Virus record (IMG/VR): IMGVR_UViG_3300009162_000001
Length of the DNA: 64,000 nt
Direction: 5' to 3' (one strand)
Source: a virus
Shown piece after piece: positions 1 through 16,414 of the stretch (position 1 is the first letter of the stretch; every line of letters begins with the position of its first letter). The position numbers and the translations under genes are program-made. The notes below the pieces were generated by a model. That model worked only from the letters and a program-made list of their open reading frames with translations, ran no database searches and was not told the DNA's origin.

Positions 1-2552
1 CCACCGTTGTCACCCGACAACCTAAGCCAGCTGAGGAGATACTCCTTCGAGTCGAACGTCGAGTGTGCGTCATCCCCGTATTCGTTGTATGCGGAGATCG
101 TACCGTCGCCGTTCGACACGAGATCATGTCGGCTACCGTGTGTGTCGACGCCGGACAGGACGGTCGTACCATCCTTCGTGTTGCGCGCGTTCCAGACGTG
201 ATCGGCCAACTCCATGATGTGAAGGTTACCTGGGTTGGTGTCACGCCATCGACCGTGAGCGTCTCGTGGCTGATTGGGGTCAAAGTCAAAAGGGACGACA
301 TCACCGACCGCCGCCTCGGTCGGACGACCTGGGTGGCGACCCATGGTCGTTCCCGTGGCGAGCTGGTGGTAGTACTGACACAGGCCACCGGCGCGAACTC
401 CGACGTACTTACGCATGTGCTTGATGCAGCGTGTGCCATCGCCCTCGGTGTTCCACCGGATCTTAGCCGCACCAGGACCGTAGACCCAGTAGTCACGAAG
501 CTGATGACCAGCCGAGCCAGGTGACTTGACACCACGCTCCTTAGCCCAGGCGATGTACTCGTTTAGCCAGCCTTGGACGTCCGGATGATCAAGATCGAAA
601 ACCGACTCAAATTCGACCGTATAGCTACCAACGGCCGGCGTGCGTTCGGGCGCCTGGGGAGGTTCAGAGGTCTCAAGTTCAGACCTATCTGTACCAGTTT
701 GTCCAGCTCCAAGGGGGAAGTCATAGTTCTCGCCTGCGAAGGCCACGCGGATGCGATCAAATGTGATCGGACCGACCTGATCCACCAACGGAGTAAGATC
801 GGTAGCGGTCTCGGTCAACGTGATGTGCGGGATCCACGTCTTGAATGAGTGTGCCGACTGATCGATGACGTCGTGCACCTGCTCACAGATGAACTCGTAT
901 GACTCCGTCAGCTCATCACCCTGCACGAGCAGCACCGTGCACTCTTCACGATCCGGCTGAGCGTCACCTGGGTTAAAGAGTGCGAGCCCAAAACCTTCGG
1001 CGTCGATGACATCCAGCGCCGATGCGGCAGCCTCGATCCGACTAAGGATCTGCTCCTCGTTTTCCTCGGTGATGTCCGCGGCCTCGCCTAAGTACTTGAT
1101 CGTACAGTGAAGCTCGCCGGCTGGAAGACCACCATGCACAGCGAGACGACCCGCGTCATCCTCAGACGGGACCAATGCGATCATCGCACCGGTATGTACT
1201 ACAGCTGCAGCTGTAAGATCTTCAACGTTATTCATTACTTCTAACTCGATCACCGGAGTATCAGAGTTAGGCAGCTTACTGATGCCCAAGACACGCATGC
1301 GCTGATCCCGACCAAGAACTACCTCTTGCGCCTTGATGTAGTGATCATTAGCCTCGGGATCGTCAGTGTTCGTGGGGAACTTTACCGCGTGCGTCCCCGC
1401 TGGTACTGAAATCTTAAAGACCACAGCACCTGGTTTCGTCGCGTAGATCTGGGTCGCGACGTCACCATTGGCGCTTGTTGACGTGTATGCCTTGTCAGAT
1501 AAGACGTCGCCAACCTTGAGATTCTTATATTGATCTTGTACACCTTCAAGACCACGCCACACGGTAATCGGTTTAGTGACCGTTCCGCGTGCGACGACAT
1601 CGTCCAGTGCCGCAACCTGCGTCTCAGCGATCTGAGCATCTGACACGCGATCAAGTGCCGGTGGTCCGTTGCGTAGACGATCGTTTAACGCCTTGAAATT
1701 CATGCGATCTGGGTTGTAGCCGTTACCCGTGTAGGCGTTAAGTTCCTTGATATCGGTCGGTTCGAGTGGATGCGTGATCGCATCCAGCGCATCGGTACCG
1801 GTTAGACCTTCAGTCTTGGATAGAGCAGCCTCGTCGTGACCTACGATCTCCGGAGTGACGTCATCGATCGTGCTAGGCACGTCAGCCTCAGTCAACTGTG
1901 GACGAGCGTTCTGATGCGTCTCAGGAACGTTACCGATGAACGTACCGGCGCGTGGCTCGACTTCAGGTGTCTGCCAGTCACCCGTCTTGACCTTGTCGTA
2001 GGCCTGCTTCTTGGTGAGAGGCTTACCCTTTCCCCACGAGTCACCCTTACGCTTCTCGTGGAGAAACTTCTTGGTGGACTGATCCCATCGCATACGCTCG
2101 TTATCGCGCTGAGCGACGACCTCGCCGTCGGGAATCGTGGCACGGTGGATCGCCTTCGTCGGGGCGAACTTCTTCAACGCCTTCACGACACCGGAGATAC
2201 CACCACCTGGTGTCTCGGTCCATTGACCATCAGCATCGCGAAGTTCATGTTTCCACTGATCACCACCGGCTGCGGCCGTCATTGCCGCGGTGATCGAGCT
2301 CTCACCACTGAGGAACGCGTCCACCTCGGCGTCTGTGAAGCCACCGTCATCGAACTCCTCATGAGCGTTGGCCTCATCCTCCTGTGCCTGACGCTCCTCC
2401 GGAGTAAGGGTGTGCGAGATGTCGCGGAAGGGATCATCCAGCGGCAACTCATCGGTCATCAGGTAGTGCTGAGCCTCCGCGAGCGTCATACCACGAGGCA
2501 TCGCAGCGATCTCAGAGAGGTCGAACGTCTCATCAACGTGGAAGTTACTCAT
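1..2552 (-). CDS. multidomain virion-type protein (C-terminus beyond window): ADP-ribosyltransferase + 2H (LigT-like) phosphoesterase + actinophage head-protein motif
   Basis: Absent from the ORF track because there is no stop inside the window. Hand translation of the minus frame from ATG 2552 (ATGA overlap with the stop of the 2627-aa ORF) stays open to nt 1, about 850 codons. R-S-E ART signature: ITVWRG, AYTSTS, KAQEVVLG. Two HxT motifs about 90 aa apart: LHCTIKYLG and IPHITLTE. Then LRDYWVYGPGAAKIRWNTEGDGTRCIKHMRKY. Confidence 0.75.
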   Translation of the reverse strand, partial: MSNFHVDETFDLSEIAAMPRGMTLAEAQHYLMTDELPLDDPFRDISHTLTPEERQAQEDEANAHEEFDDGGFTDAEVDAFLSGESSITAAMTAAAGGDQWKHELRDADGQWTETPGGGISGVVKALKKFAPTKAIHRATIPDGEVVAQRDNERMRWDQSTKKFLHEKRKGDSWGKGKPLTKKQAYDKVKTGDWQTPEVEPRAGTFIGNVPETHQNARPQLTEADVPSTIDDVTPEIVGHDEAALSKTEGLTGTDALDAITHPLEPTDIKELNAYTGNGYNPDRMNFKALNDRLRNGPPALDRVSDAQIAETQVAALDDVVARGTVTKPITVWRGLEGVQDQYKNLKVGDVLSDKAYTSTSANGDVATQIYATKPGAVVFKISVPAGTHAVKFPTNTDDPEANDHYIKAQEVVLGRDQRMRVLGISKLPNSDTPVIELEVMNNVEDLTAAAVVHTGAMIALVPSEDDAGRLAVHGGLPAGELHCTIKYLGEAADITEENEEQILSRIEAAASALDVIDAEGFGLALFNPGDAQPDREECTVLLVQGDELTESYEFICEQVHDVIDQSAHSFKTWIPHITLTETATDLTPLVDQVGPITFDRIRVAFAGENYDFPLGAGQTGTDRSELETSEPPQAPERTPAVGSYTVEFESVFDLDHPDVQGWLNEYIAWAKERGVKSPGSAGHQLRDYWVYGPGAAKIRWNTEGDGTRCIKHMRKYVGVRAGGLCQYYHQLATGTTMGRHPGRPTEAAVGDVVPFDFDPNQPRDAHGRWRDTNPGNLHIMELADHVWNARNTKDGTTVLSGVDTHGSRHDLVSNGDGTISAYNEYGDDAHSTFDSKEYLLSWLRLSGDNG

Positions 2553-5500
2553 CGCCACATCATCCCTGCGTCGACAGCCGCAATGATCTGACTCTCGTCA
2601 TCCGGCTTAGGTACGATGCGAACACGAACCGTAGCACCACTACCGTTAGGTGTCACGCTAAGAATGTGGTAGTAGAGACCGGCGGCGAGCAGCATCTCAT
2701 TCTCGCCCTTGTGGAGTGAGATCGGCTTGGCCCAGTACATCGGCGTCCCAGGTGGCGCCTCGATCTCAATCTTGACGTGACCACCGAACGCCGAGTGCCC
2801 ACCGGTTGACGTCGAACCAAAGCCACCCATCCAGCGCGTCTGGCCGACCATCTTCGCCAGGCTAGCGTACGACGTAGCCTTGAACGCGTCGAAACCAACA
2901 CCACGGTGGAGCAACACCGGCTCGATCGAGGGGATCATCGCCGCCTGAGCGTTGTTCATACTTTGCTCATTCGAGCTGGAGATGCCCTGCACCTTGCCAT
3001 ACAGGAAGGCGTTGATGGAGTGGTAGATACCGCCGGTGTAGTTGGTAATGCCACTCTTAGCGGAGCCTGAAGGTTCCTGCCCGGTCGCCTTCTTAAAGGC
3101 CGCCAGCGCCTTGTTAAACCACGAGGTAGCCGAGCTGGTGTCCAAAACATTGTACGAATACTTGTTCGACTCCTCAAGCGTCGGTAGGTTACCCTCAACG
3201 CCTGCCATGAACTTCGGCGGCGGTGGCTTCGGGATCGGCAGGTTGTGCAGGATCGCGTAGCCGGCGGGTGTCTGCAGCCAGTCGGTGATCTTCTTCTCGA
3301 AGAGGTGATCGTCAGGCTTCGAGACCTTGGCAGCGCCGACCTCATCGATAACGCGCAGCGTCTGCATCTTCGTGAGGTTGTTGTTGTCCGCGATCGTGAT
3401 CAACGCGGCCCAGATGTCCTGGCTTGAGCTCTTGAGGTACGTCGCCGGCTGGGACTTGAACGCCTGGTAGACCTGCTTCTTCTGCGCATCACTTAGGTGG
3501 GAGATGTCCCCGCCACCCATGTCGATCGTCCCACCACCGGGCACCGTGACGACGCTCGCTGAGTGCGACGTCTTAACCGTTGGGACCGTAGCCTCCGGCT
3601 TGTACCAGCCGTAAACGGGTGCTGAGTTAGCGAGCGTCGCTACCTTGTACGACTCGGTATTCGTCGTCGTCCACGTGTTGTTGGCTGGGCTCCAGGTCTG
3701 AAGCTGGAACTCAGACCCAGGCTTGTGATAGACGATTCGATGTTGACCATTAGACGAGTACGCGAGAACGGTCGTCGCATTATACTGACTCTTCTTAGAG
3801 AGCGGACCCCACGCTGCGACCTTCGGACCCTTGGGTACGTCGGTTCCATCGGGAAGCGTGATCGTTCCGAAGATGCCGGTTGGCTTCGGTGGCGGCGGTG
3901 GCGGTGGCGGCGGTGGCGGCGCCGGAGGTGTCGTTGGATATTTCAACGCCACAGGTGCTGGCTTTGGTGGCTTAGGATGAGCCACCGGCGTCGTCGCGTC
4001 GTACCACTTCGTCTTCACAACCTTAGCCAGCGACGCCAACTTGTACTGCTCGCCGTCGACGTAGATCCACTTCTTGTTGGTGTCATCCCACTTGTGTAGG
4101 TAGAAGAACCCGTAGTTGGCCGACAGCCTGTACTTGCCATCTTCCGAGTACGCCAGAGGCTGGCCGCTGTTCTTCTTGGCGGCCAGGTCCTTCCACACCT
4201 TAACCTCGGGACCCTTGTCCACCGTCGTACCGTCGGCTAGTGTCAGCTTCGACTTCGGTGTTGATGAGGCAGCAGGCGCGATCTTTGTCGGACTTAGGTC
4301 AATCGCGTAGTTCCAATAGTCCGAGTGGTCTTGCGCCAGCTTCTTGGGATGGTCACCCTCGGCGAAGAGCTCGTACTTGTTCGTGGCCGGATTGTACTTG
4401 CGAAGCTGGTATCCACCGAAGTTGGAGACCAAGATAAGTTCTTTGCTAGGTGACACCGCGTGTAGCTTGTACCCGGCGTCTGGGTTGACGTCACCGATCG
4501 ACTCCCAGCCATCCATTGGGATCGTGTAACCGGTCGACACTGGTGTTCCGTCCTTGAGTGGGAACACGTTAGGTGTCGTGCTTAGTCCGGTGAACTTATC
4601 CGTGATCGGTGGCGGAGAGTTTGGTGACTGTTCCGCGTGAACCCAACTCTTGAAGAAACCCACCTTGTTAGTTGCTGTGAGGTACGGATCCTTACCCGAG
4701 CCAGCAAGTTCATACTTATGCTTGTCAGGATTCCACGTTGAGACAAAGAACCAACCATCGGTTGAAAACAGTTGGTGTTGAAGATCTGTCGTTACGGCGT
4801 GCAGCTTATGTCCAGGAACAACGCTCTTATCCTTAAGAATCTGCTGCCAGTCTTCAGGCTGAATATCCTCCGCAAGTAGGACCTCGGTGCCGTCCGGCAG
4901 TGTGTCGATCGGTGACGCGATCGACACGTCCTTAACCTCACCCTCGGTCGACACCGGTGCGAGTGTCCACTTCGTGTTCTTGCCGAGGACGTTGTTGTCC
5001 ATGAAGTTTGTGAGTTGTTCCTCGGTGGTGAACTCGTATGACGTAGGCACATCTGTGCCTTCATCATTGTGGTAGAACACCTGCAGCTTCTTAAAGCCTT
5101 CACCATCACCATCTTGCTTGATCTTATAGGTGAAGGTTCCACCTTCCTTGACGTACGTTCCGGTGGCAATGATCTTCGCGTACGTAGCCGAACCAAACGA
5201 TGGTGTCGCGTTCCAGACCTCGTCTGCGGTGGCATTACGTGAACCAACGGTCGGCGACAACGTCGGATCACTACCGCCCGGCGTACCCGCGTACCACTTA
5301 TCGGTCATGTTCCACGTGTCGACCGGGAAGTGATTTAGCAACGACGACTGTGGTTCCGCCGCGACGATCTCACTCGTCCAGTTCGGGCTGTCGGCGGTGC
5401 CGTCGTTGGTCTCGAGAACAAACTTGCTGTCATCGTCATACGTGACTCGCCACTTACCGTCCTCACGCGTCGCGACGACGTCACCGGGAACCCACGGCAA

Positions 5501-8500
5501 CTTTTCTAGATCCGCAAACGACGTGACCACCTGCGGTACATGCACACCAGGTGTTGGCGTCGGTGCTGGCTTAGCGCCAGACAGTGATGCGTAGACCGGA
5601 GCTCCGGTCGGCGTCGGGTATATCTTCCACGAGTCGCCGTTGTCGTCGTTCATCTTAAGGTAGGCGTCGACCTCGTGTGGCTCAACCTTGACGAGCGCCA
5701 CACCGTTCTTAAACACAAACATGTGTTCGCCAAGCTGACCCTTTTCAACGGTAAGAAGATCACCGTTCTCAAGATTCTTGTTGGCGATCACCGAGTAGCT
5801 CTTCACATCGGGATCGGCCAGGGCCTTCATGATCAGTGAGGTGCCGGGATGCTCGTCAGACGACGGCGGCATCACGGTCGGCTTCTTGACGTCAGGATGC
5901 GCGATGACGTAGTCGAGACCCTTCTTCGTCTTCAGCCACTTCTTAAGCTTGTTCGTGTACGAGCTGTTCGTCGGCGCGCTGGGCGGCAACCCAGTGTCCA
6001 GCGCCGCTAGGATCTGCATGTTCGTCAGGTGTTCGTAACCGACACCCGCATCTGAGGTCTTGAACGACTGCAGTGCATCCCAGATCGCCTCAGGCTTGTT
6101 GTGCCACTTCGCACCGTTGGCATTGAAGTACGTCTTAAGAACACCGATCTGCGCGGGCGACATGCTGGTGATGTCAGCACCTGGGTTCGGCGCAGGCTTC
6201 GGTGGATCGACGTTGACGAGATGCCACTTTGACGTACTTGTGTGATCTTGCGCCGTGAACGCTAAGTCATTTGCCGGGATGTTTGTCTCAAGGGTCATCC
6301 AGTCACTGGGGTTGTTCGTTGATTGCTTCTGGATGCGAAACTTCTTCATGTCTGCGTTAGGTAGTGATGTACCACCCGCAATGATGCGGAAGTTACCCTC
6401 AGGTGTCGTCACCGTCGCAATGACTTGGTTCTTGACGAACGTAGCCATAGACTCAAATGTGAACTTTTGCTTCCACGCTTCCGAGGTAAACGTTGTCTCG
6501 TTGTCACCACCGTAGGCACCGGTTGACACAGCACCGTCAATCGCCGCATTGTGCTGTGAGATGTTCGCCGGCACACCAAAGTGCGGAACGGCTACGTCAC
6601 CCTTAAGCCAACTCTTAACACTCTCGTTTGAGTGATACTTGGTGACATCAGCGAGATCATCTTCCCACTCGGCGTCAGACGCGCCTTCACCCGGTAGACC
6701 CAGCTTGCTGACCACCGTCCACTTACCGGTGCTGTTCTGAATCTTACTGAGCTCGATCTGACCGGTGCTGATGTTGTACGTCATCGCCAGGCTACCGTCT
6801 GTCGTCACTCCGATCGTCGTACCGGGTGCGTTAAACAGTCCGGCATCCACCATGTCGTCAACGCTCAGCTCATCCTCAGGCTCCCACCATGTATCTGAAC
6901 CGACATTACCGTCAAGATCTTGATTGAACAACGAGCTAGGATTCCACGCAATGTCAGCACCACCAGCTTTGTCGATCCACCACTGGTTAAACGCATCATT
7001 ATCATGAAACTGAACAGATGACTTACCATCACCGGTCTCTTCGTACAATGCAAGCGGATAGTCAAACGATGTCTTACGAATCGTAACCGGGTTACCATTC
7101 TTATCATTTCCAGCGATAAGAATATTACCCGGCTTTGCGGTCTTAGCTGCGTCAAGAACATTCGTGCCAAGTTCAGCGTGCTTGGTGTCGACCGGATACG
7201 CCATCTTGACGGCAGATGTTCCCAACTTAGCCTGACGCTGTGCGGTCGTCTTCTTGTAAAGATCGCTAAAGTCCTTTTCCAGCGTATCACGACGCTGCAT
7301 GATCGCCTTAAGGAACGTCTCAGGATCGTTACCGTAGGCGCTTAACCATCCGTTCTTGGCGGCACCCTGCGCGTACGAACCGAACATATCCCGGATGTCA
7401 TCGTCAGAGAGCTCGGTCGCGTCAAAGATAACCTGCGCGATCGCATGATCTTCATCCGGATCGTGCATCTGGATGTTCTCGCCGTTGGCATATGCCTTCC
7501 ACATGTCCGGGTACGTGTGCTTGTTTGGACTGAGTGGGCTCCACGGCTTGTAGTCCGGATCAAGCTTGTCCTTGGCGTAGAACCTGAAGGCGTGACCCTT
7601 GTCGATGGACGAGATGTGACCGTTTGGTAGTCTGATGAACTGACCGGAGTGTGCGTCGTTGTTGCCCAGGAGCCAGTCGAGGACTTGCTCCTTCTGCATG
7701 TCACGCACATCTTCTTCAGACAAGTTCGTCGGCTTAAACGAACCGTTCGGGAACGCGTCCTGGGCGTCGAACATCGCCTGCACGGCGGCCGGCTTGCCAT
7801 CGACGTCCATCACCCACGTCTTGGGACCCTTAAGCCCGATGGCTGCCTGCAGCTTGTTCGCCGCGACGTCGAGCTCAAGCACAGGATCATCGTTAGGGTT
7901 CTTCTTACGACGCACCAACCAGCGCTGACCCTTGTCATCGATGTAGATCGGCGACGCGGAGACTCCCGTGGCCGCGTTCCCGATCTTCTTCATCTTCGCG
8001 GGATCAGGCTTGTGTGCGTTCATCACCGCCACGATGGAACCCGGCACACCAGGCGGCGATGAATACGACTTAATGACAACCGGCGGTGAAACCGGTGGTG
8101 GAGCTGTTGACTTCGGTGCGGATGCAGGCTGACGCCAGTCCCACTTCGCGTCCTTCGCCATCTTATACGTGTCGGCCTTGGTGTCATACGAGACCGAGTA
8201 CCACGCATCAGTCACAGTGCTCTTCTGCTGCAGCTGGTACTTCTTCATCCCCGCACTCCAGCGGAGTCGATGAGTGCCATCAGCACTCACGGCGACGACC
8301 GTACCATCCTGGTGTTGCTTGTGAATGGTCGCAGGAATGAACTTCTTAGTTGACGGCGCAGATGATGTGACCTTCGCTGGCTCAACGTTTTCAAGAGGCG
8401 TTGGCACCGTACTTGGAATGGTAGGCACCGCGTTGGGTACGCCCGGTGGTGAATCCAGCTTCATGTTCTCCGGCACCGGCGTGGTAATGGTCGTGTCGGA

Positions 8501-10432
8501 GTCGGGACCCTTGTTCTCAAAGCCAGAGATCTTATGCTTAAGCGGCTCAGACATCGGCGACGAGCTGATGCCATGCGTCAGCTTGGAGATCCAGCCCTGC
8601 TGCTTATCCGTCAGGTTGTCCCAGGTCTCCTGGGAATCGATCGCGCCGACGGCATCCTTCAGCTGCGTGAATGTTGGGCTGTTCATCTTAAAGAAGTCAG
8701 CAAGTGGACCCTTACTGATGAACCGCCCGTCCTTGCCGCGCGGATGCTGCTCAGGCTGCCACTTACGGTGAACGCCACTCGCCGTCAGGGCCATGTCCAT
8801 GGCGAACTTGTACGACTGCGACTTAGGTGGCTTCGGCGGATCAGCCGGGATGATGTCATTGGTATCGGTCGTCGAGTCACCGGTGTCGAAGATGTCGAAG
8901 ATCTTCGGAATGCTGTCGGCCAGCGCCGGGTGGAAGTCACCATCACGCAACATTGTGGCGATCTGCTGCCTCGTCAGCCACAACGCGTTCATAACCTCGG
9001 CGTGATCGACCTCAGGCTCAAACTGACGTGGCGCCTCAGCGGCGATGTTCGTGTACTTCCACGGTTCAGGCTGACCCTCAATAGGCTGAACGGTTACGTG
9101 CGTACCCAGGTGCTTAACGTCATCCAGGTACTTCTGCGAGACGTGCAGTTCCTCATACGTCTCGCGAGCCGCACCCTGGGCCGGAGTCTCATACTGATCC
9201 ATCGCACCGCCGGGAAGCTGCCACTTCCCGGTGTTGGAGACGGCCTTACCACGCTGGATGAAGAGGAAGCTGTCTTCACCGTCCTCGTTTGGCGCCTTGA
9301 TCATGACACCCGAGGCGCCGTACGTTCCCCAGATGCGCCACTGCTGGTTCTTAACGAGGTACTTGTCGCCCGACTTACCACGCAGTGCCGCAGGTAGGAT
9401 CACGAACTTGTTGGGATCCTTGGCGATCTCGGCGATCTGCTCAGGTGTGCGACCACCGTACTTGCGCTCAATGCGAGCCTGCTCAGCCTTCTTCATGGCT
9501 GCAAGCTGCTCAGGTGTCGGTGGCGCCTTCTTCTGCTTAGGTACCTTAAAACCACCAAGCAGCTTTGAGATCTCGACGTCACTCAAGTCATCGATGAACT
9601 CACCACTATGAGGATCCCGCGGATGATCTTTAGGATCCCAGTTAGGCTTACCCTTTGCCCACGGGTATCCCGCGGACATCATGACGAGCTCTTCCTCATC
9701 ATCCGCGGTGACGTCAGGGAACAACTCGTATGTCACAGAGCAGCGACAGTTGATCGTCTCGTCCAGTGGTCCACGAGGATCTCCTGGGTACTGCATCTGT
9801 GAACGACCAACCGTGAACGGCTCGGAGATCTTTTGTGTCTGACCGTCAGCCTCATCATGTGTTGGCCGTGTGTGCGAGTCGTTGGTCGCCAGCCAAGACT
9901 TCTTGCCGTCGGGATCCACCATCGCAGCCTGAGCATATGAGCCAGCTTCTAGCGCAGCGTGGATCTCGGTACGTGCGATCGTCAGTGCCTTGGAGTCTGA
10001 GACGTTACCGACGTGCTTGATGCGCGCGGCGATCTGCTTGACGTCCTCATCTAGCGCGTAACCCTTGATGAGCTGCGTGTGGATCGCGTCCCAGACGTCC
10101 TGGCTTAGATCTTGAAACCGGTTGGCGGCCAGCTGCAGGTGTGTCTCCACGAAGTCTTCATTTAGGAGGAACGCCTTATCCCCCAAACCAAGGTCCTGAC
10201 GCACCCTCTCAGCACCGTCGAGTACCTGCATGCCCAGATATCCCAGCAAGGGTCCGTCCACCTGCTGAGCCCACAGGGAGGGCAGCTCATTGAGGTCTGA
10301 CATCGATACCCGCGTGGTCTGCTTACCGACCAGCGCGCGCATCACGGCACGCCACGCCTTCTGGATCAACGCAGCTAGTGTGTCAGCGCGCTCATCCTTC
10401 TCGTCGCGCGACCACCCCCGTGTGTCCGCCAC
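2549..10432 (-). CDS. giant 2627-aa MuF (SPP1 gp7)-like head-morphogenesis fusion protein: MuF + Nudix + kinase-like motif + repeated beta-rich modules + C-terminal ADP-ribosyltransferase
   Basis: Single uninterrupted ORF directly after the portal gene. MuF motif: ARTEIH...THDEADGQ...INCRCS. Nudix box: GGAMDQYETPAQGAARETYEEL. Kinase-like motif: NNDAHSGQF...SIDKGHAF. At least 10 repeats of about 70-95 aa, PPAPPPPPPPPPPPKP tract. ART signature: YTGGIYHSIN, LLHRGVG, GFGSTSTG, ENEMLL (ExE). Confidence 0.9.
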   Translation of the reverse strand: MADTRGWSRDEKDERADTLAALIQKAWRAVMRALVGKQTTRVSMSDLNELPSLWAQQVDGPLLGYLGMQVLDGAERVRQDLGLGDKAFLLNEDFVETHLQLAANRFQDLSQDVWDAIHTQLIKGYALDEDVKQIAARIKHVGNVSDSKALTIARTEIHAALEAGSYAQAAMVDPDGKKSWLATNDSHTRPTHDEADGQTQKISEPFTVGRSQMQYPGDPRGPLDETINCRCSVTYELFPDVTADDEEELVMMSAGYPWAKGKPNWDPKDHPRDPHSGEFIDDLSDVEISKLLGGFKVPKQKKAPPTPEQLAAMKKAEQARIERKYGGRTPEQIAEIAKDPNKFVILPAALRGKSGDKYLVKNQQWRIWGTYGASGVMIKAPNEDGEDSFLFIQRGKAVSNTGKWQLPGGAMDQYETPAQGAARETYEELHVSQKYLDDVKHLGTHVTVQPIEGQPEPWKYTNIAAEAPRQFEPEVDHAEVMNALWLTRQQIATMLRDGDFHPALADSIPKIFDIFDTGDSTTDTNDIIPADPPKPPKSQSYKFAMDMALTASGVHRKWQPEQHPRGKDGRFISKGPLADFFKMNSPTFTQLKDAVGAIDSQETWDNLTDKQQGWISKLTHGISSSPMSEPLKHKISGFENKGPDSDTTITTPVPENMKLDSPPGVPNAVPTIPSTVPTPLENVEPAKVTSSAPSTKKFIPATIHKQHQDGTVVAVSADGTHRLRWSAGMKKYQLQQKSTVTDAWYSVSYDTKADTYKMAKDAKWDWRQPASAPKSTAPPPVSPPVVIKSYSSPPGVPGSIVAVMNAHKPDPAKMKKIGNAATGVSASPIYIDDKGQRWLVRRKKNPNDDPVLELDVAANKLQAAIGLKGPKTWVMDVDGKPAAVQAMFDAQDAFPNGSFKPTNLSEEDVRDMQKEQVLDWLLGNNDAHSGQFIRLPNGHISSIDKGHAFRFYAKDKLDPDYKPWSPLSPNKHTYPDMWKAYANGENIQMHDPDEDHAIAQVIFDATELSDDDIRDMFGSYAQGAAKNGWLSAYGNDPETFLKAIMQRRDTLEKDFSDLYKKTTAQRQAKLGTSAVKMAYPVDTKHAELGTNVLDAAKTAKPGNILIAGNDKNGNPVTIRKTSFDYPLALYEETGDGKSSVQFHDNDAFNQWWIDKAGGADIAWNPSSLFNQDLDGNVGSDTWWEPEDELSVDDMVDAGLFNAPGTTIGVTTDGSLAMTYNISTGQIELSKIQNSTGKWTVVSKLGLPGEGASDAEWEDDLADVTKYHSNESVKSWLKGDVAVPHFGVPANISQHNAAIDGAVSTGAYGGDNETTFTSEAWKQKFTFESMATFVKNQVIATVTTPEGNFRIIAGGTSLPNADMKKFRIQKQSTNNPSDWMTLETNIPANDLAFTAQDHTSTSKWHLVNVDPPKPAPNPGADITSMSPAQIGVLKTYFNANGAKWHNKPEAIWDALQSFKTSDAGVGYEHLTNMQILAALDTGLPPSAPTNSSYTNKLKKWLKTKKGLDYVIAHPDVKKPTVMPPSSDEHPGTSLIMKALADPDVKSYSVIANKNLENGDLLTVEKGQLGEHMFVFKNGVALVKVEPHEVDAYLKMNDDNGDSWKIYPTPTGAPVYASLSGAKPAPTPTPGVHVPQVVTSFADLEKLPWVPGDVVATREDGKWRVTYDDDSKFVLETNDGTADSPNWTSEIVAAEPQSSLLNHFPVDTWNMTDKWYAGTPGGSDPTLSPTVGSRNATADEVWNATPSFGSATYAKIIATGTYVKEGGTFTYKIKQDGDGEGFKKLQVFYHNDEGTDVPTSYEFTTEEQLTNFMDNNVLGKNTKWTLAPVSTEGEVKDVSIASPIDTLPDGTEVLLAEDIQPEDWQQILKDKSVVPGHKLHAVTTDLQHQLFSTDGWFFVSTWNPDKHKYELAGSGKDPYLTATNKVGFFKSWVHAEQSPNSPPPITDKFTGLSTTPNVFPLKDGTPVSTGYTIPMDGWESIGDVNPDAGYKLHAVSPSKELILVSNFGGYQLRKYNPATNKYELFAEGDHPKKLAQDHSDYWNYAIDLSPTKIAPAASSTPKSKLTLADGTTVDKGPEVKVWKDLAAKKNSGQPLAYSEDGKYRLSANYGFFYLHKWDDTNKKWIYVDGEQYKLASLAKVVKTKWYDATTPVAHPKPPKPAPVALKYPTTPPAPPPPPPPPPPPKPTGIFGTITLPDGTDVPKGPKVAAWGPLSKKSQYNATTVLAYSSNGQHRIVYHKPGSEFQLQTWSPANNTWTTTNTESYKVATLANSAPVYGWYKPEATVPTVKTSHSASVVTVPGGGTIDMGGGDISHLSDAQKKQVYQAFKSQPATYLKSSSQDIWAALITIADNNNLTKMQTLRVIDEVGAAKVSKPDDHLFEKKITDWLQTPAGYAILHNLPIPKPPPPKFMAGVEGNLPTLEESNKYSYNVLDTSSATSWFNKALAAFKKATGQEPSGSAKSGITNYTGGIYHSINAFLYGKVQGISSSNEQSMNNAQAAMIPSIEPVLLHRGVGFDAFKATSYASLAKMVGQTRWMGGFGSTSTGGHSAFGGHVKIEIEAPPGTPMYWAKPISLHKGENEMLLAAGLYYHILSVTPNGSGATVRVRIVPKPDDESQIIAAVDAGMMWR

Positions 10433-10438
10433 GTCGAA

Positions 10439-12127
10439 TCACCCCCGGGTGCGCTGGGTCACGTCGATACTGATCTGCTTGTCGCGTGTCCCGGGTGCGT
10501 CACCGGCTCGCGTCAGCTGCCTTACCTGACCATCTGCGATCTTTTGCGTCGCAGGTTGACCGGCCGTCGACGCTGAACCTTGACCCGGGCCGCTGGGTTT
10601 CGGTCCACCGACGACGGCCGGCGCCTGCTGTCCCGGAAGACCAGGCATACCCGGCAGCGCAGGCTGCGGGATCTCCATCTTGTCCCCGGTGAGCTCTTCA
10701 TATGCGGGTCCGGCAAGCTGCCCGCCCTGACGCACCAGACCACGCTGGAGCATCTTCTTCTCTTCCTTGGAGGACGGCTTGTCAGCCTCGGTAAATCCGG
10801 TCTCTCGACGAGTCGCGGCGTCCGAGATGATGATACGGTCGTTGAGCTGAAGCGCCAGATCAGATCGGTCAGGCCGCTGTGTCAGCTGCGTGGTGTCGTA
10901 CCATACCACGATGCGGTTGCCGTCCTTGGTGACCATCGACTCGCCGGCGGATTTCATCATCGGCGCAAGGTAACCAACGGTCAGACCACGCGTGACGATC
11001 TCGACCTTCGGTGCGATATGGATCTTGATCGCCGACTCCTCAAGCGTCGCCGACGACCAGTAGTTCGTGTTGCCAAGACCGGTCAACACCTCCTGTGGCA
11101 GGTTCAGTGACGCGGCCAGCCGGCGAAGCGCACCCTCACGGGCCTCAAAGATCTTGTCGTCCAGCGGCGTCGCGAACGTCATGTGCCTGAACTTCTCGAT
11201 CAGGTCGGCGGGAACGCGAAGCGGAAGTGGCGCGGCGGACGCAGGACTGCCCGGGTTCTTGATGACCGCACGCATGACGTCGAGCAGCTCAGCGAAGAAC
11301 GGATCCTGCTGCTCGGCGTATGCCGGGTTGACCGGCAGGGTCACCTCATCGGGAATTAGCCAGACGCCGTTGAGCGCGACGCGTGAGATCAGCGTCGCCA
11401 TGATGTAGCGGTTGTACATGTCGATCTCGCGCATGGTCGCCAGTGCGGCGCGCGCCGGTGACGATGCCTTCCACGGCATACGCTCGTCGCGGTCCCAGAT
11501 GCGAACGATCAACGTCTCCTTGGGCAGTGGGATCCACAGGCCCTCCTCGACCTGCAACTCCCAGCCACGCTGCTCCATGCCGAGGATGTTCTTGAACGTG
11601 CGCTGTGACTTCTTAATCGAGGTCTTAGGCTGCACCGTCCAAACTGTGCCGGTCTCATCGGGCTCCGCGTCGAGGATGACGCCAGCGTACGCCTCAACGG
11701 GCATGTCCATGTCGTTGGTGTTGAAGCCAACGAGGTAACCCTCACCCGGAACGGAGAGCTGAACCGCCAACGACTTAAGCATGGCGGACTGACCGGCGAT
11801 GCCGCCGGCGAGCTGTTCAATGATCTCAACGGCTGGACCAGACGTGATCGGCTGTGGTTCGTCGCCACCCGGCGCCATCTCAGCCACGTTGAGACGACAG
11901 CGACTCAGCGCCTCAGCGAACCACGTGACACCGTAGTTGAACTCGCCGAGACCCTCGTAGAACGACCAACCTTCATCCTGCCAGCCATCGTACACCAGCG
12001 GTCGAAGCAGCATCAGGTCACGGGGGCTGGATATCATCTGCACCGCGGCGGTCAGCGGCGGTAGGTCAGCGTGCTGCCCGTTACGAAGCGTTGTCCCCCG
12101 TGACGCACGCCGAAGGTCAGATGCCAT
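10439..12127 (-). CDS. portal protein
   Basis: 562 aa, positioned between terminase and the MuF gene. The N-terminal region (WQDEGWSFYEGLGEFNYGVTWFAEALSRCRL) is typical of SPP1/HK97-type portals. Pro/Gly-rich C-terminal tail. Confidence 0.8.
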   Translation of the reverse strand: MASDLRRASRGTTLRNGQHADLPPLTAAVQMISSPRDLMLLRPLVYDGWQDEGWSFYEGLGEFNYGVTWFAEALSRCRLNVAEMAPGGDEPQPITSGPAVEIIEQLAGGIAGQSAMLKSLAVQLSVPGEGYLVGFNTNDMDMPVEAYAGVILDAEPDETGTVWTVQPKTSIKKSQRTFKNILGMEQRGWELQVEEGLWIPLPKETLIVRIWDRDERMPWKASSPARAALATMREIDMYNRYIMATLISRVALNGVWLIPDEVTLPVNPAYAEQQDPFFAELLDVMRAVIKNPGSPASAAPLPLRVPADLIEKFRHMTFATPLDDKIFEAREGALRRLAASLNLPQEVLTGLGNTNYWSSATLEESAIKIHIAPKVEIVTRGLTVGYLAPMMKSAGESMVTKDGNRIVVWYDTTQLTQRPDRSDLALQLNDRIIISDAATRRETGFTEADKPSSKEEKKMLQRGLVRQGGQLAGPAYEELTGDKMEIPQPALPGMPGLPGQQAPAVVGGPKPSGPGQGSASTAGQPATQKIADGQVRQLTRAGDAPGTRDKQISIDVTQRTRG

Positions 12128-15504: not shown

Positions 15505-15595
15505 AAATGACAGATGAGCGCCACCCGCGGATAGGAGTACGCAGGGTGACGCTCATCGTTTCTCCAGCCGACCAATCCATGTACTCGCCGGAGAG

Positions 15596-15668
15596 AGCCA
15601 CGTGAAGGTATCGAACCCTCGACATTCCGCTTACAAGGCGGACACTCTACCAACTGAGTTAACGTGGC
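15596..15668 (-). tRNA. tRNA-Thr (TGT)
   Basis: Hand fold. Acceptor GCCACGT/ACGTGGC, D-loop AGTTGGTA, anticodon loop CT-TGT-AA, T-arm GAGGG-TTCGATA-CCTTC. Confidence 0.88.
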
Positions 15669-15773
15669 GTGGCACGATGGCGTTTCTCCAAGCGCCACCG
15701 TGCTTTGTGCAAAACAGCACCAACAGCATGTCCGTGGCTAGTGGACATGGAACCAAGACGTTGTCTTGACCCG

Positions 15774-15844
15774 CTGGGAGTGGAGGACTCGAACCTCCAC
15801 AGCGGGAACCAAAATCCCGCGTCCTGCCATTAGACGAACTCCCA
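15774..15844 (-). tRNA. tRNA-Gln (TTG)
   Basis: Acceptor TGGGAGT/ACTCCCA, anticodon loop TT-TTG-GT, T-arm GGAGG-TTCGAGT-CCTCC. Confidence 0.85.
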
Positions 15845-15849
15845 ATGCT

Positions 15850-15926
15850 GTAGGCGACCCCGTACTCAGACGGAACCTTTTAGGAGTTGGTTAGACTCCC
15901 TCTATCCGGTAACCAGCCGGACCTAC
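15850..15926 (-). ncRNA. non-canonical tRNA-sized structured spacer (possible pseudo-tRNA)
   Basis: 77 nt. Complementary ends GTAGGT./.GCCTAC. Internal 5-bp stem with 7-nt loop CTAACCA. No canonical T-loop. Confidence 0.3.
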
Positions 15927-15930
15927 CTCG

Positions 15931-16002
15931 GGTGACTGAAGAGGATCGAACTCTCGTATCTGGGACCACAACCCAGCGCTCTACCATTGAGCTACAATCA
16001 CC
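15931..16002 (-). tRNA. tRNA-His (GTG)
   Basis: Encoded G-1 opposite C73. Acceptor GTGATTG/CAGTCAC, anticodon loop TT-GTG-GT, T-arm GAGAG-TTCGATC-CTCTT. Confidence 0.88.
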
Positions 16003-16003
16003 G

Positions 16004-16074
16004 TACGCCGTGAAGGTATCGAACCTTCGTCCCCCGGGTAAAAGCCGGGTGCTAAGCCACTCAGCTAACGGCGC
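16004..16074 (-). tRNA. tRNA-Lys (TTT)
   Basis: Acceptor GCGCCGT/ACGGCGT, anticodon loop CT-TTT-AC, T-arm GAAGG-TTCGATA-CCTTC. 1 nt from tRNA-His. Confidence 0.88.
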
Positions 16075-16079
16075 TTAAG

Positions 16080-16164
16080 GAGGCGCAGGTCTGACTCTCG
16101 CTTGGATAGTAAGCTGTCATGATCAGCCTTCGAAGCCATGTTCACAAAACTTCGTTAACGCCTC
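16080..16164 (-). ncRNA. structured spacer with closing stem (non-tRNA)
   Basis: About 85 nt bounded by GAGGCG/CGCCTC. No cloverleaf found. Confidence 0.25.
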
Positions 16165-16167
16165 ACG

Positions 16168-16248
16168 CGGAAGGTGAGGGACTCGAACCCCCAACCGTTG
16201 CCGGCTCTGGTTTTCAAAACCAGTTCCCACGCCAATGGGAGACCTTCC
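16168..16248 (-). tRNA. tRNA-Ser (TGA)
   Basis: Acceptor GGAAGGT/ACCTTCC, anticodon loop TT-TGA-AA, long variable arm, T-arm GGGGG-TTCGAGT-CCCTC. Confidence 0.85.
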
Positions 16249-16250
16249 GT

Positions 16251-16324
16251 GTAGTGATATTTCGGTGGACGGTATCGCAACCCACACTGTCCGTTTATGC
16301 GACCGGGTAAATCCAGCTCACTAC
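16251..16324 (-). ncRNA. tRNA-sized structured spacer (degenerate tRNA?)
   Basis: 74 nt bounded by GTAGTGA/TCACTAC. T-loop-like GGTTGCGATACC, but no canonical arms. Confidence 0.3.
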
Positions 16325-16333
16325 GACTGGCCG

Positions 16334-16414
16334 TATGCTCGGAGGGACTTGAACCCTCACACCCGTAGGTACCAGATCCTAAGTCTGGCGCGTCTGCCGT
16401 TCCGCCACGAGCAC
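16334..16414 (-). tRNA. tRNA-Leu (TAG)
   Basis: Acceptor GTGCTCG/CGAGCAT, anticodon loop CT-TAG-GA, long variable arm, T-arm GAGGG-TTCAAGT-CCCTC. Confidence 0.85.

What the first reader, a model, noticed from the sequence alone, without database searches (positions are those of the whole stretch)
1..2552. Large ORF missing from the supplied track: ADP-ribosyltransferase fused to a 2H phosphoesterase
The minus-strand frame starting at ATG 2552 (ATGA overlap with the stop of the 2627-aa gene) has no stop down to nt 1. The ORF caller therefore skipped it, and all track ORFs in 1-2548 are in other frames and look spurious.
- The translation has an R-S-E ADP-ribosyltransferase core: LNAYTGNGY, ITVWRG, AYTSTS, AQEVVLG.
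- It also has a 2H-phosphoesterase pair of HxT motifs: LHCTIKYLG and IPHITLTE.
- 2H enzymes act on 2',3'-cyclic phosphates, 2'-5' linkages and ADP-ribose-1'',2''-cyclic phosphate. Some phage 2H enzymes degrade cyclic-nucleotide immune signals.
- The protein follows the MuF gene and ends in a motif common to actinophage head proteins, so it is probably packaged and injected.
Basis: partly seen in the sequence, partly recalled or inferred. Interest (0 to 1): 0.72.

Follow-up and report, generated by a model that had tools for sequence, protein, structure and literature searches.

The report
Phage head-cargo protein: ADP-ribosyltransferase plus 2H phosphoesterase
The overlooked reading frame is a real phage gene, cut off by the window edge, for a multi-enzyme protein (an ADP-ribosyltransferase, a 2H phosphoesterase and, beyond the edge, an atypical kinase) that is probably carried in the phage head and released into the host; such proteins have been predicted before but never tested biochemically.

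Summary
**Observation: confirmed.**
- The minus frame from ATG 2552 to nt 1 is 850 codons with no stop.
- Its start overlaps (ATGA) the stop of the 2627-aa MuF gene.
- It has coding composition. The other five frames carry 14-76 stops.

**Interpretation: supported.**
- Residues 259-440 are an R-S-E (VIP2/C3/Alt-type) ADP-ribosyltransferase. It passes the Pfam cut-off, and R333, S358 and E410 are conserved. The upstream E/Q of the ExE/QxE motif is Ala.
- Residues 452-615 are a LigT/ThpR-like 2H phosphoesterase. Both HxT histidines are invariant, the AlphaFold model has pLDDT 89, and all top 50 Foldseek PDB hits are 2H enzymes.

- The protein does not end in the window. A 94%-identical relative continues for about 290 residues into an atypical PI3/4-kinase-like domain.
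- It also has a shared ~95-residue leader, a conserved unknown domain, and "TAAA" junctions at the domain borders.
- Relatives swap or lack the ART cassette.
- A Gordonia phage GMA2 homologue was found in purified virions by published mass spectrometry, including a peptide from its 2H domain.

**Verdict.** This is a new member of the known class of phage polyvalent, head-packaged effector proteins. The substrates are unknown. Interest is moderate.

The parts
1..2552 (-). Partial CDS: the first 850 codons of a multi-domain virion-cargo ('polyvalent') protein. The 3' end lies beyond nt 1. The full length is inferred to be about 1,140 aa.
   Evidence: No stop. Coding composition. The start is shared with P0002 and P0003. 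P0001 is 94% identical over aa 445-850 and continues 291 aa further.
2265..2552 (-). N-terminal leader, aa 1-96 (…FDLSEIAAMPRGMTLAEAQHYLMTDELP…FLSGESSITAAMTAAAGG). It is a candidate capsid-targeting or pro-sequence.
   Evidence: 54-62% identical to the N-termini of P0002, P0003 and P0004, which carry different cargo after it. No Pfam hit.
2262..2291 (-). Junction 1, 'TAAMTAAAGG' (aa 88-97). It is a candidate protease cleavage site or cassette boundary.
   Evidence: TAA[AGMSV] occurs 3 times against 0.21 expected, only at domain borders. P0002 joins the leader directly to 2H at this motif.
1869..2264 (-). Conserved domain of unknown function, aa 97-228 (DQWKHELRDADGQW … GNVPETHQNARPQ).
   Evidence: 90% identical to P0003 aa 300-437, and 46-55% to P0004, P0007 and P0008. 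Weak paralogue inside the 2627-aa protein at nt 8108-8371. No Pfam or PDB hit.
1233..1778 (-). R-S-E mono-ADP-ribosyltransferase domain, aa 259-440. R333 lies in ITVWRG (nt 1551-1568), S358 in AYTSTS (nt 1473-1490) and E410 in AQEVVLG (nt 1311-1331).
   Evidence: PF03496 scores 39.6 bits against a cut-off of 23.4. In alignment A2, R, S and E are invariant. The profile hits VIP2 at 1.5e-17, and also ExoT, Vis, Certhrax, CdtA and C3.
1197..1217 (-). Junction 2, 'LTAAAVV' (aa 446-452), between the ART and the 2H domain.
   Evidence: 29 of 44 2H homologues have TAA or SAA within 25 aa upstream of the first 2H strand. GMA2 Orf10 has 'GVTAAAL' at the same place.
708..1199 (-). 2H phosphoesterase domain (LigT/ThpR-like), aa 452-615. 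H482-x-T484 lies in LHCTIKYLG (nt 1086-1112) and H576-x-T578 in IPHITLTE (nt 810-833).
   Evidence: PHROG 'RNA ligase' families match. In alignment A1, H38, T40 and H132 are invariant. The profile hits 1iuh at 6e-7, 1vdx, LigT and Acb1. The AF2 model has pLDDT 89. Foldseek top 50 are all 2H enzymes. The best BFVD matches are actinophage 'RNA ligase' or structural proteins.
327..527 (-). Small Cys/His motif domain, aa 676-742 (LRDYWVYGPGAAKIRW…RC…C..YH). Function unknown.
   Evidence: phrog_6439, E = 6.5e-18. Found in 147 actinophage records, mostly 'hypothetical protein'; some are stand-alone small ORFs and some lie within 'capsid maturation protease' genes. It occurs before or after 2H in at least 10 of 44 homologues.
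3..326 (-). Residues 743-850: an 'RDAHGRW' motif (nt 246-266) followed by a small conserved domain. The window cuts the gene here. In relatives an atypical kinase domain follows.
   Evidence: 94% and 80% identical to P0001 and P0002. For the kinase beyond the edge: K / E / DRHxxN / IDHG are invariant, the profile hits type II PI4K at 1.5e-4, the AF2 model has pLDDT 86, and Foldseek returns Rio2, PRPK, PI3K and CtkA.
2549..10432 (-). Upstream gene: a 2627-aa MuF (aa 117-233) - NUDIX (382-495) - … - C-terminal ART (2436-2597) polyvalent protein. Its stop overlaps the start of the finding's ORF.
   Evidence: Pfam PF04233 57.3 bits, PF00293 46.6 bits, PF03496 41.3 bits. PHROG head morphogenesis families.
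10439..12127 (-). Portal protein gene, which sets the head-morphogenesis context.
   Evidence: phrog_776, E = 1e-107. tblastn hits annotated portal proteins of actinophages at 34% identity or less.

Best explanation
**What it is.** The frame is the first ~75% of a genuine late gene of a novel actinophage-like phage. It sits in the head module in the order portal, MuF giant protein, this gene.

**Domain order.**
1. A ~95-residue leader shared by the cargo proteins of related phages.
2. A conserved unknown domain.
3. An R-S-E ADP-ribosyltransferase.
4. A LigT-like 2H phosphoesterase.
5. A small Cys/His motif domain.
6. A short conserved domain.
7. Beyond the window edge, by 94%-identical homology, an atypical PI3/4-kinase-like kinase.

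**Proposed mechanism.**
1. The protein is made with the head proteins, translationally coupled to the MuF gene, and is built into the procapsid.
2. It is probably cut at the 'TAAA' junctions that flank the domains.
3. It is released into the cell with the DNA.
4. There the ART uses NAD+ to modify a host macromolecule, as T4 Alt does.
5. The 2H domain hydrolyses a cyclic or 2'-5' phosphodiester. That is either a nucleotide immune signal (my estimate ~0.35) or an RNA 2',3'-cyclic-phosphate end or RNA cleavage (~0.3).
6. The kinase phosphorylates a host target.

**Shown:** the ORF, the domain identities, the catalytic residues, the gene context, the cassette shuffling, and the virion presence of a homologue.

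**Inferred:** packaging in this phage, cleavage, ejection and all substrates.
For: - **Real gene:**
- **ART:**
- **2H:**
- **Kinase continuation:**
- **Head-module context:** portal and MuF and the large terminase subunit at 20897-22432.
- **Where homologous 2H modules sit:** in 509 actinophage records they lie 10-14 kb from the left end, in genes annotated portal, MuF-protease fusion, head maturation protease or 'RNA ligase'. They are fused to MuF (PF04233) or to S78/ClpP-type prohead proteases in large-database homologues.
- **Virion proteomics:** GMA2 Orf10 gave 18 peptides at 29.4% coverage, spanning aa 142-846. They include SEVGDYDAYTPHITAVTGQQAR inside the 2H domain. No peptide lies before the TAA sites at 127 and 136 (PMC4524720). 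Orf10 aligns with window aa 366-614 at E = 4e-25.
- **Modular leader and junctions:**
- **Literature:** 2H, NUDIX and Alt/VIP2 ART domains fused to MuF or portal are predicted to be head-packaged and injected (PMC5512222; PMC9503650). MuF-VIP2 fusions occur in Microbacterium phages (PMC7302621).
Against: - There are no direct data for this phage. The packaging evidence is by homology at 30% identity, and an ART in GMA2 Orf10 is only weakly supported (hhalign probability 36%, C-terminal half only).
- This polypeptide has no MuF, portal or protease domain of its own.
- The 'TAAA' cleavage idea rests on position and enrichment only.
- The ART has Ala where ExE/QxE enzymes have E or Q, so its activity or target class may be atypical.
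- The single 2H sequence is below Pfam's gathering score.
- The 2H is closer to LigT/ThpR than to Acb1 (6e-7 against 1.7e-3), which does not favour a cyclic-oligonucleotide substrate.
- The C-terminus, including the kinase, is not in the window and is inferred from relatives.
Confidence: 0.7

Rival explanations
1. RNA-repair reading. The 2H domain is a 2',3'-cyclic phosphodiesterase that heals tRNAs cut by host anticodon nucleases. It works with the phage's own RNA ligase, its tRNA set and its Ro-like protein. Location in the head module is incidental, or simply ensures early availability.
For: - The window encodes an RNA ligase (PF09414, 61 bits, 28968-29675), a TROVE/Ro60-like protein (23860-25476) and 16 tRNAs.
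- The 2H is closest to LigT/ThpR-type RNA 2',3'-cyclic phosphodiesterases.
- PMC9503650 proposes this role for many phage 2H domains.
Against: - The ligase is 26 kb away and is not linked to the 2H gene.
- No polynucleotide kinase/phosphatase, KptA or RtcB was found among the 13 ORFs of 13-36 kb that were scanned against Pfam.
- PMC5512222 notes that the 2H versions in polyvalent proteins never associate with RNA ligases.
- The fused partners (R-S-E ART, protein-kinase-like domain) are not RNA-repair enzymes.
- The family is consistently fused to head proteins.
Confidence: 0.2
2. Bacterial-competition toxin or assembly reading. The protein is a MuF-associated polymorphic-toxin-type cargo whose ART kills or inhibits competing bacteria (or serves a lysogen). 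The 2H plus Cys-motif part is a head-assembly accessory of the prohead protease or scaffold, with no role in the infected cell.
For: - MuF-linked variable toxin domains in temperate phages are described in PMC5576092.
- The ART cassettes turn over quickly between 80-94%-identical relatives, as in polymorphic toxins.
- In many homologues the 2H module is fused directly to the prohead protease.
Against: - The catalytic His residues of the 2H domain are invariant across 19 divergent homologues, which argues for enzymatic function.
- No integrase or repressor turned up among the ORFs that were profiled (23 of 24 distinct ORFs scanned returned nothing of the kind; most of the window was not scanned). 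No immunity gene is identifiable.
- The window looks like a large lytic-type genome, with a tRNA array, DNA polymerase, primase and helicase.
Confidence: 0.08
3. Not an independent gene. The frame would be a pseudogene remnant, or the C-terminal extension of the 2627-aa protein reached by a programmed frameshift at the ATGA overlap.
For: The 4-nt overlap puts the two frames in contact. Giant fused versions (MuF-ART-2H-protease, P0024) exist elsewhere.
Against: - 850 stop-free codons with coding composition.
- Three relatives start their protein at the same Met with the same N-terminal sequence.
- An ATGA overlap is the ordinary arrangement for translational coupling.
- No slippery sequence was examined or is needed.
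Confidence: 0.02

Closest known systems
Phage 'polyvalent proteins' and head-packaged effectors (Iyer et al. 2017, PMC5512222; Iyer et al. 2022, PMC9503650)
   Same: - Several unrelated effector domains sit in one polypeptide.
- The gene is encoded among late or head genes next to MuF and portal.
- 2H, NUDIX and ART domains are listed components.
- The class is predicted to be packaged, possibly processed, and injected to counter host defences.
- Domain shuffling between relatives is extensive.
   Different: - This polypeptide has no MuF, portal or MPTase domain of its own. It uses a different shared N-terminal leader.
[quoted passage not shown]
- Its kinase is PI3/4K-like, not the truncated Ser/Thr/Tyr kinase group described there.
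T4 Alt (head-packaged, injected ADP-ribosyltransferase)
   Same: It is an R-S-E ART made late, carried in the head and ejected with the DNA to modify host proteins (as summarised in PMC5512222). PHROG 'Alt-like' family 802 matches weakly (E = 0.0026).
   Different: - There is no close sequence relationship.
- The window ART has A-x-E, not E-x-E.
- It is fused to other enzymes.
- The target is unknown, and packaging is not shown for this phage.
Gordonia phage GMA2 Orf10 (KR063281; 'putative structural protein')
   Same: - It aligns at 30% identity over 263 aa, covering the ART C-terminal strands, a 'TAAA' junction and the whole 2H domain in the same order.
- It follows the portal-like Orf9 in the head module.
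- The next gene carries the Cys/His motif.
- It was found in purified virions by MS.
   Different: - The N-terminal 600 aa are unrelated.
- A complete ART is not confirmed there.
- The Cys motif is in a separate gene.
- There is no kinase domain.
LigT/ThpR-type 2H phosphoesterases (1iuh, 1vdx, E. coli LigT 5ldm)
   Same: The fold and both HxT motifs match. These are the best sequence-profile and structure matches.
   Different: Identity is 14-21%. The domain is embedded in a phage head-module multi-domain protein. The substrate is untested.
Acb1 anti-CBASS 2H phosphodiesterase (PMC9117128)
   Same: It belongs to the same 2H superfamily and is phage-encoded. Structural matches include 7t27 and 9q2y (E about 1e-4) and BFVD Acb1 entries.
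   Different: - Pfam Acb1 scores 14.3 bits against a cut-off of 27.
- The match is weaker than to LigT.
- Acb1 is a small stand-alone protein, not known to be virion cargo.
MuF-VIP2 fusion proteins of Microbacterium phages, clusters EH/EJ (PMC7302621)
   Same: A VIP2-type ART is attached to the head-morphogenesis machinery of an actinophage and is predicted to be a virion component. The window's own 2627-aa protein is of this kind.
   Different: In the finding's ORF the ART is not fused to MuF, and it is combined with 2H and kinase domains.

Membership tests
R-S-E ADP-ribosyltransferases (Pfam PF03496 ADPrib_exo_Tox; VIP2/C3/Alt clade) | Profile match above the curated threshold | tested here: met
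   39.6 bits against a cut-off of 23.4, aa 259-427. The 7-sequence profile hits VIP2 at 1.5e-17.
R-S-E ADP-ribosyltransferases (Pfam PF03496 ADPrib_exo_Tox; VIP2/C3/Alt clade) | Catalytic Arg (strand 1), Ser-Thr-Ser motif and catalytic Glu | tested here: met
   R333 (VWRG), S358 (STS) and E410 are invariant columns in alignment A2.
R-S-E ADP-ribosyltransferases (Pfam PF03496 ADPrib_exo_Tox; VIP2/C3/Alt clade) | E/Q two residues before the catalytic Glu (ExE or QxE, which sets Arg or Asn target specificity) | tested here: not met
   The window has A408-Q-E410, where five of the six aligned relatives have E-x-E.
R-S-E ADP-ribosyltransferases (Pfam PF03496 ADPrib_exo_Tox; VIP2/C3/Alt clade) | NAD+-dependent ADP-ribosyl transfer | not testable with these tools
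   Needs a biochemical assay.
2H phosphoesterase superfamily (LigT/ThpR-like) | Two H-x-T/S motifs, one in each half of the duplicated fold | tested here: met
   H482-C-T484 and H576-I-T578. H, T and H are invariant in 19 homologues, and both motifs align to those of 1iuh.
2H phosphoesterase superfamily (LigT/ThpR-like) | 2H fold | tested here: met
   The AF2 model has pLDDT 89.1 and pTM 0.84. The 50 best Foldseek PDB hits are all 2H proteins, with TM 0.43-0.64.
2H phosphoesterase superfamily (LigT/ThpR-like) | Curated Pfam threshold (PF13563 or PF02834) on the single sequence | tested here: not met
   PF13563 scores 20.7 bits against a cut-off of 27, and PF02834 scores 12.1 against 23.3. Several homologues carry precomputed hits to both families, and the family profile hits PDB LigT-type chains at 6e-7.
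2H phosphoesterase superfamily (LigT/ThpR-like) | Phosphodiesterase activity on 2',3'-cyclic, 2'-5' or cyclic-oligonucleotide substrates | not testable with these tools
   Needs a biochemical assay.
Acb1 anti-CBASS family (PF23474) | Profile match above the curated threshold | tested here: not met
   14.3 bits against a cut-off of 27. It shares only the superfamily.
Phage polyvalent / head-packaged effector proteins (Iyer et al. 2017) | Two or more unrelated effector domains in one phage-encoded polypeptide | tested here: met
   ART and 2H lie in the window, and a kinase is added by homology.
Phage polyvalent / head-packaged effector proteins (Iyer et al. 2017) | Encoded with virion or head morphogenesis genes | tested here: met
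   It lies directly downstream of the portal and MuF genes, on the same strand, with start and stop overlapping.
Phage polyvalent / head-packaged effector proteins (Iyer et al. 2017) | Physically present in the virion and delivered to the host | tested here: inconclusive
   Only a 30%-identical homologue (GMA2 Orf10) is shown in virions by published MS. There is nothing for this phage, and delivery has not been shown anywhere.
MuF-fused polymorphic toxins of temperate phages (Jamet et al. 2017, PMC5576092) | N-terminal MuF domain in the same polypeptide | tested here: not met
   This ORF has no PF04233 hit. MuF is in the upstream 2627-aa protein.
MuF-fused polymorphic toxins of temperate phages (Jamet et al. 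2017, PMC5576092) | Cognate immunity gene immediately downstream | not testable with these tools
   The downstream region is outside the window. In relative L001 the next gene is a 70-aa ORF of unknown function.
PI3/PI4-kinase-like (protein-kinase-like fold) domain; C-terminal part, outside the window | Catalytic Lys, helix-C Glu, DRHxxN catalytic loop, DxG metal-binding motif; kinase fold | tested here: met
   Tested on P0001, which is 94% identical over the shared part.
- K84, D179-R180-H-x-x-N184 and D197-H198-G are invariant or nearly so.
- The AF2 model has pLDDT 86.
- Foldseek returns Rio2, PRPK, PI3K, VPS34 and CtkA.
- PF00454 scores 23.3 bits against a cut-off of 27.1 in P0001, and 28.9 in P0052.

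The most novel reading that the evidence does not exclude
The ART and the 2H domain may form a coupled two-step machine rather than two independent effectors. The tandem ART-TAAA-2H order recurs in three distant lineages: this phage, P0024 and, less certainly, GMA2 Orf10. Three possibilities follow:
- The 2H domain opens a 2',3'-cyclic phosphate on cleaved host RNA, or on a cyclic-nucleotide alarm signal, and the atypical A-x-E ART then caps the new phosphate or ribose end with ADP-ribose, making the damage or the signal irreversible.
- Conversely, the 2H domain clears an ADP-ribose cyclic-phosphate by-product.
- The NUDIX domain and second ART of the neighbouring MuF protein belong to the same injected NAD+/ADP-ribose toolkit.
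Probability: 0.1. Interest if true: 0.8.

Novelty: new member of a known kind. Interest (0 to 1): 0.42.

Why it matters
- **Anti-defence enzymes present from the start.** Enzymes carried inside the virion act before any phage gene is expressed. That is when nucleotide-signalling defences (CBASS, Pycsar, Thoeris, type III CRISPR) and NAD+-based defences are triggered.
- **An untested prediction.** Head-packaged 2H, NUDIX and ART domains have been predicted computationally. My literature searches found no biochemical or infection tests of packaged 2H domains.
- **A concrete test case.** This locus offers a compact candidate with defined catalytic residues: R333, S358 and E410 in the ART, and H482 and H576 in the 2H domain.
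- **Natural controls.** The ART cassette is present in this phage, lies in a separate gene in the JGI relative, and is absent in the Logan relative.
- **A cultivable homologue.** Gordonia phage GMA2 has a homologue already detected in particles.
- **A possible delivery system.** The shared leader and the 'TAAA' junctions, if they prove to be a targeting and cleavage system, could also be used to load foreign proteins into actinophage capsids.
- **An annotation lesson.** ORF callers that drop frames running off a contig end can miss the largest gene in a region.

Tried and rejected
**Searches for the source or for close relatives (all negative or uninformative).**
- Megablast of nt 1-6000 against 50,697 phage records found no match.
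- An exact 47-mer from the window's left end is absent from viral, metagenome and genome contig collections, so the ORF could not be extended directly.
- The search for related loci with P0001 (metagenomes) and P0002 (IMG/VR) returned no confirmed relative.
- The JGI contig carrying P0001 has no retrievable DNA.
- NCBIfam gave no hit for the ORF.

**Single-sequence searches that were too weak.**
- Single-sequence PDB searches of the whole ORF, the ART and the kinase region were uninformative. Family profiles were needed.
- A word-based search with the ART domain alone found only one homologue (P0050, 35% identity). The ART cassette is therefore very divergent, and no ART structure was modelled.

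**Ideas tested and not supported.**
- A complete ART in GMA2 Orf10: hhalign supports only the C-terminal strands (probability 36%), so I do not claim it.
- Yeast-type tRNA-splicing logic (2H CPDase, kinase and a Tpt1-like ART): rejected. The ART is R-S-E exotoxin-type rather than KptA/Tpt1, and the kinase has a protein-kinase fold rather than a P-loop PNK fold.
- An RNA element in the region: Rfam finds only tRNAs elsewhere in the window.
- A second copy of the leader, 2H or Cys motif in the window: none.

Full report
**1.

Translating window:1-2552 on the minus strand gives 850 codons with no stop. The ATG at 2552-2550 overlaps the TGA (2551-2549) of the 2627-aa ORF 2549..10432(-) as ATGA. 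The ORF lister skips the frame only because it runs off the window. The five ORFs it reports in this stretch are on the other strand or in another minus frame.

The frame has the composition of a coding sequence. GC at codon positions 1/2/3 is 0.645/0.438/0.629. The other five frames contain 14-76 stops. A codon log-odds score trained on the neighbouring giant gene is +0.26 for this frame and -0.14 or lower for all the others. Relatives from two metagenomic sources start their proteins at the same methionine with nearly the same sequence, and one has the same overlap with its upstream gene.

**2. The ADP-ribosyltransferase.**

- Pfam ADPrib_exo_Tox (PF03496) matches residues 259-427 at 39.6 bits, above the curated 23.4.
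- I aligned it with the C-terminal ART of the upstream 2627-aa protein and five ARTs from related proteins. Three columns are invariant: R333 (ITVWRG), S358 (AYTSTS) and E410 (AQEVVLG).
- A profile of that alignment hits VIP2 (E = 1.5e-17), ExoT, Vis, Certhrax, CdtA, iota toxin and C3.
- One departure: two residues before the catalytic Glu, where these enzymes carry the E or Q of 'ExE/QxE', this protein has Ala. Five of the six relatives have E. So the R-S-E core is intact, but target specificity, or even transferase versus NADase behaviour, cannot be read off by analogy.
- The cassette is very divergent. A word-indexed search of 5.8 billion proteins with the domain alone found one homologue, at 35% identity.

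**3. The 2H phosphoesterase.**

- PHROG families annotated 'RNA ligase' (LigT-like) match residues ~355-615 at E = 1e-35.
- The single sequence is sub-threshold in Pfam: 2_5_RNA_ligase2 scores 20.7 bits against 27, and Acb1 scores 14.3 against 27. Many homologues carry precomputed PF13563 or PF02834 hits.
- In an alignment of 19 homologues, the first H-x-T (H482, T484) and the second His (H576) are invariant. The second Thr is Cys in many Streptomyces-type members.
- The family profile hits T. thermophilus 2'-5' RNA ligase 1iuh (6e-7), PH0099, ThpR/LigT and, more weakly, Acb1 (1.7e-3). Both motifs align.
- An AlphaFold model (pLDDT 89.1, pTM 0.84) returns only 2H enzymes among its 50 best PDB matches. 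They include LigT, Usb1, plant Appr>p cyclic phosphodiesterase, AKAP18, rotavirus VP3, Acb1 and poxvirus cGAMP phosphodiesterase.
- Against predicted viral structures, the best matches are actinophage proteins named 'RNA ligase', 'structural protein' or 'capsid morphogenesis protein' (TM up to 0.80).

**4.

The protein is a mosaic.

| Residues | Module | Relatives |
|---|---|---|
| 1-96 | Leader | 54-62% identical to the N-termini of P0002, P0003 and P0004, which carry different cargo |
| 97-228 | Conserved unknown domain | 90% to P0003; also in P0004, P0007 and P0008; weak copy inside the 2627-aa protein |
| 259-440 | ART | 26% to the ART of P0003; 35% to P0050 |
| 445-850 | 2H and following modules | 94% to P0001; 80% to P0002 |

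After the 2H domain come two more modules:
- A small Cys/His motif domain (residues 676-742, phrog_6439). It occurs in 147 actinophage records, mostly as 'hypothetical protein'. Some copies are stand-alone small ORFs and some lie inside protease genes. It sits before or after the 2H domain in different homologues.
- A further 108 residues.

The window then cuts the gene. P0001 and P0002 continue for about 290 residues. That extension has 570 relatives in an exhaustive search, many at the C-termini of proteins of up to 6,274 residues. It keeps an invariant Lys, a DAE Glu, a DRHxxN loop and an IDHG motif. Its profile hits type II PI4-kinase (1.5e-4). It models confidently (pLDDT 86) as a protein-kinase-like fold whose best matches are Rio2, PRPK/Bud32, PI3K/VPS34 and CtkA.

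**5. Junctions and cassette turnover.**

The tetrapeptide TAA[AGMSV] occurs three times in the ORF against 0.21 expected. All three lie at module borders: residues 88-96 after the leader, and 447-450 between the ART and the 2H domain. 29 of 44 homologues have TAA or SAA within 25 residues upstream of the first 2H strand. GMA2 Orf10 has 'GVTAAAL' at the same place.

The three close relatives differ exactly at these joints:
- The window has leader, unknown domain, ART, 2H.
- The Logan contig joins the leader straight to 2H ('…ITAAITAAASPHTGAMIAL').
- The JGI contig puts three ART domains into two separate upstream genes and gives the 2H-kinase gene a new N-terminus.

I read the motif as a cassette boundary and a candidate prohead-protease site. 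That is inference from position only.

**6. Context.**

The window is a phage genome segment. It holds:
- a large terminase subunit (20897-22432);
- a portal gene (10439-12127);
- a 2627-aa MuF-NUDIX-…-ART protein (2549-10432), followed by this gene;
- 16 tRNAs;
- an RNA ligase, a TROVE/Ro-like protein, ThyX, a primase, a DNA polymerase and a helicase.

The portal is at most 34% identical to any deposited phage, and most of its hits are actinophages. An SsgA-like gene points to an actinomycete host. Homologous 2H modules in 509 actinophage records lie in the head module under annotations such as 'capsid maturation protease and MuF-like fusion protein', 'portal protein' or 'RNA ligase'. In large-database homologues they are fused to MuF or to prohead proteases.

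**7. Evidence for packaging.**

Gordonia phage GMA2 Orf10 (883 aa) aligns with window residues 366-614 (30% identity, E = 4e-25). The alignment covers the last ART strands (EREAILP against AQEVVLG), the TAAA junction and the entire 2H domain.

Dyson et al. 2015 (PMC4524720, S5 Table) identified Orf10 by mass spectrometry of purified virions. I mapped their 18 peptides:
- They reproduce the reported 29.4% coverage and span residues 142-846.
- They include SEVGDYDAYTPHITAVTGQQAR, which lies inside the 2H domain across its second HxT.
- None falls before the TAA sites at 127 and 136.

This is direct evidence that a homologue's 2H domain is in particles. It is indirect for this phage. A full ART in Orf10 is not confirmed.

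**8. Mechanism and rivals.**

Best supported (0.7): a virion-cargo, multi-enzyme effector. It is made with the head proteins, loaded into the procapsid, probably cut at the junctions, and released with the DNA. The ART then modifies a host macromolecule, the 2H domain hydrolyses a cyclic or 2'-5' phosphodiester, and the kinase phosphorylates a host target. This follows the model of T4 Alt and the polyvalent-protein concept (PMC5512222; PMC9503650; PMC7302621).

The 2H substrate is open.
- A nucleotide immune signal (as for Acb1, PMC9117128) is attractive for a pre-loaded enzyme.
- However, the domain is closer to LigT/ThpR than to Acb1, and the phage has its own RNA ligase, tRNAs and Ro-like protein. 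RNA-end healing is therefore a serious rival (0.2).
- Against that rival: the ligase is 26 kb away, no PNK, KptA or RtcB was seen among the ORFs scanned, and 2H domains of polyvalent proteins are reported never to associate with RNA ligases.

A purely structural or competition-toxin role (0.08) and a non-gene or frameshift-fusion reading (0.02) are unlikely, for the reasons given under the rival explanations.

**9. Novelty and score.**

The kind is known: phage polyvalent, head-packaged effectors with ART, 2H and NUDIX domains have been described computationally.

New here:
- the particular combination of an R-S-E ART, a 2H domain and a PI3/4K-like kinase behind a non-MuF leader;
- the junction motif;
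- the natural presence/absence series for the ART cassette;
- the link to published virion proteomics.

I file it as a new member of a known kind, with moderate interest (0.42). It is a solid and testable candidate, but not a surprise to a specialist. The most novel reading not excluded is functional coupling of the recurrent ART-2H tandem (window, P0024, possibly GMA2). I put that at ~0.1, because close relatives drop or separate the ART.

Noticed in passing
window 2549-10432 (-): A 2627-aa protein with MuF (aa 117-233), NUDIX (382-495) and a C-terminal R-S-E ART (2436-2597). About 1,900 residues in between have no family match. It is a second giant polyvalent protein, carrying its own ExE-type ART ('ENEMLL').
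   Followed up: partly
window 15595-26723 (-): An array of 16 tRNA genes (13 in 15.6-19.1 kb) lies between the portal and terminase region and beyond. Fifteen are confirmed by Rfam.
   Followed up: partly
window 23860-25476 (-) and 28968-29675 (-): A TROVE/Ro60-like protein (PF05731, 77.5 bits) and an RNA ligase (PF09414, 61.3 bits). Together they form a phage RNA quality-control and repair set. No Y-RNA-like family was detected by Rfam at gathering thresholds.
   Followed up: partly
window 22912-23334 (-): An SsgA-like protein (PF04686, 74.4 bits), from a cell-division/sporulation family typical of filamentous actinomycetes, is encoded by the phage. It hints at the host group and at manipulation of host division.
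   Followed up: no
window 327-527 (-); homologues P0005, P0009-P0015, P0020, P0049: The small motif domain '(L)R.YW..G.GAAKI.W…RC…C..YH' (phrog_6439) is a mobile module in actinophages. It occurs before or after the 2H domain, inside protease or MuF fusion proteins, or as a stand-alone ~70-aa ORF near genome ends. It has two conserved Cys and a His. Its function is unknown.
   Followed up: partly
window 2220-2240 and 246-266 (-); also the 2627-aa protein, in the 'HPRGKDGRF' region (within aa 1-700; position not computed): A recurrent short motif, RD..G[QR]W (related to 'PRGKDGRF'), sits at the start of modules in both cargo proteins and in relatives (P0003, P0007, P0008, P0052). It may be a linker or recognition motif.
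   Followed up: no
P0026-P0047 (Streptomyces-type prophage proteins): Giant 2H-…-S78 protease fusion proteins begin 'M..LTAAADGSH' and repeat 'LTAAA' at several internal borders. One (P0038) carries an intein-like insertion (PF14890). In many of these, the second 2H motif is H-x-C instead of H-x-T.
   Followed up: no
window 8108-8371 (-): A weak paralogue (29% identity over 90 aa, E = 0.001) of the unknown domain at aa 97-228 lies inside the 2627-aa MuF protein.
   Followed up: no
window 35237-35944 (-) and 30302-31234 (-): A ThyX flavin-dependent thymidylate synthase (PF02511, 185 bits) and an SPFH/Band 7 protein (PF01145, 25 bits), encoded among the early or middle genes.
   Followed up: no
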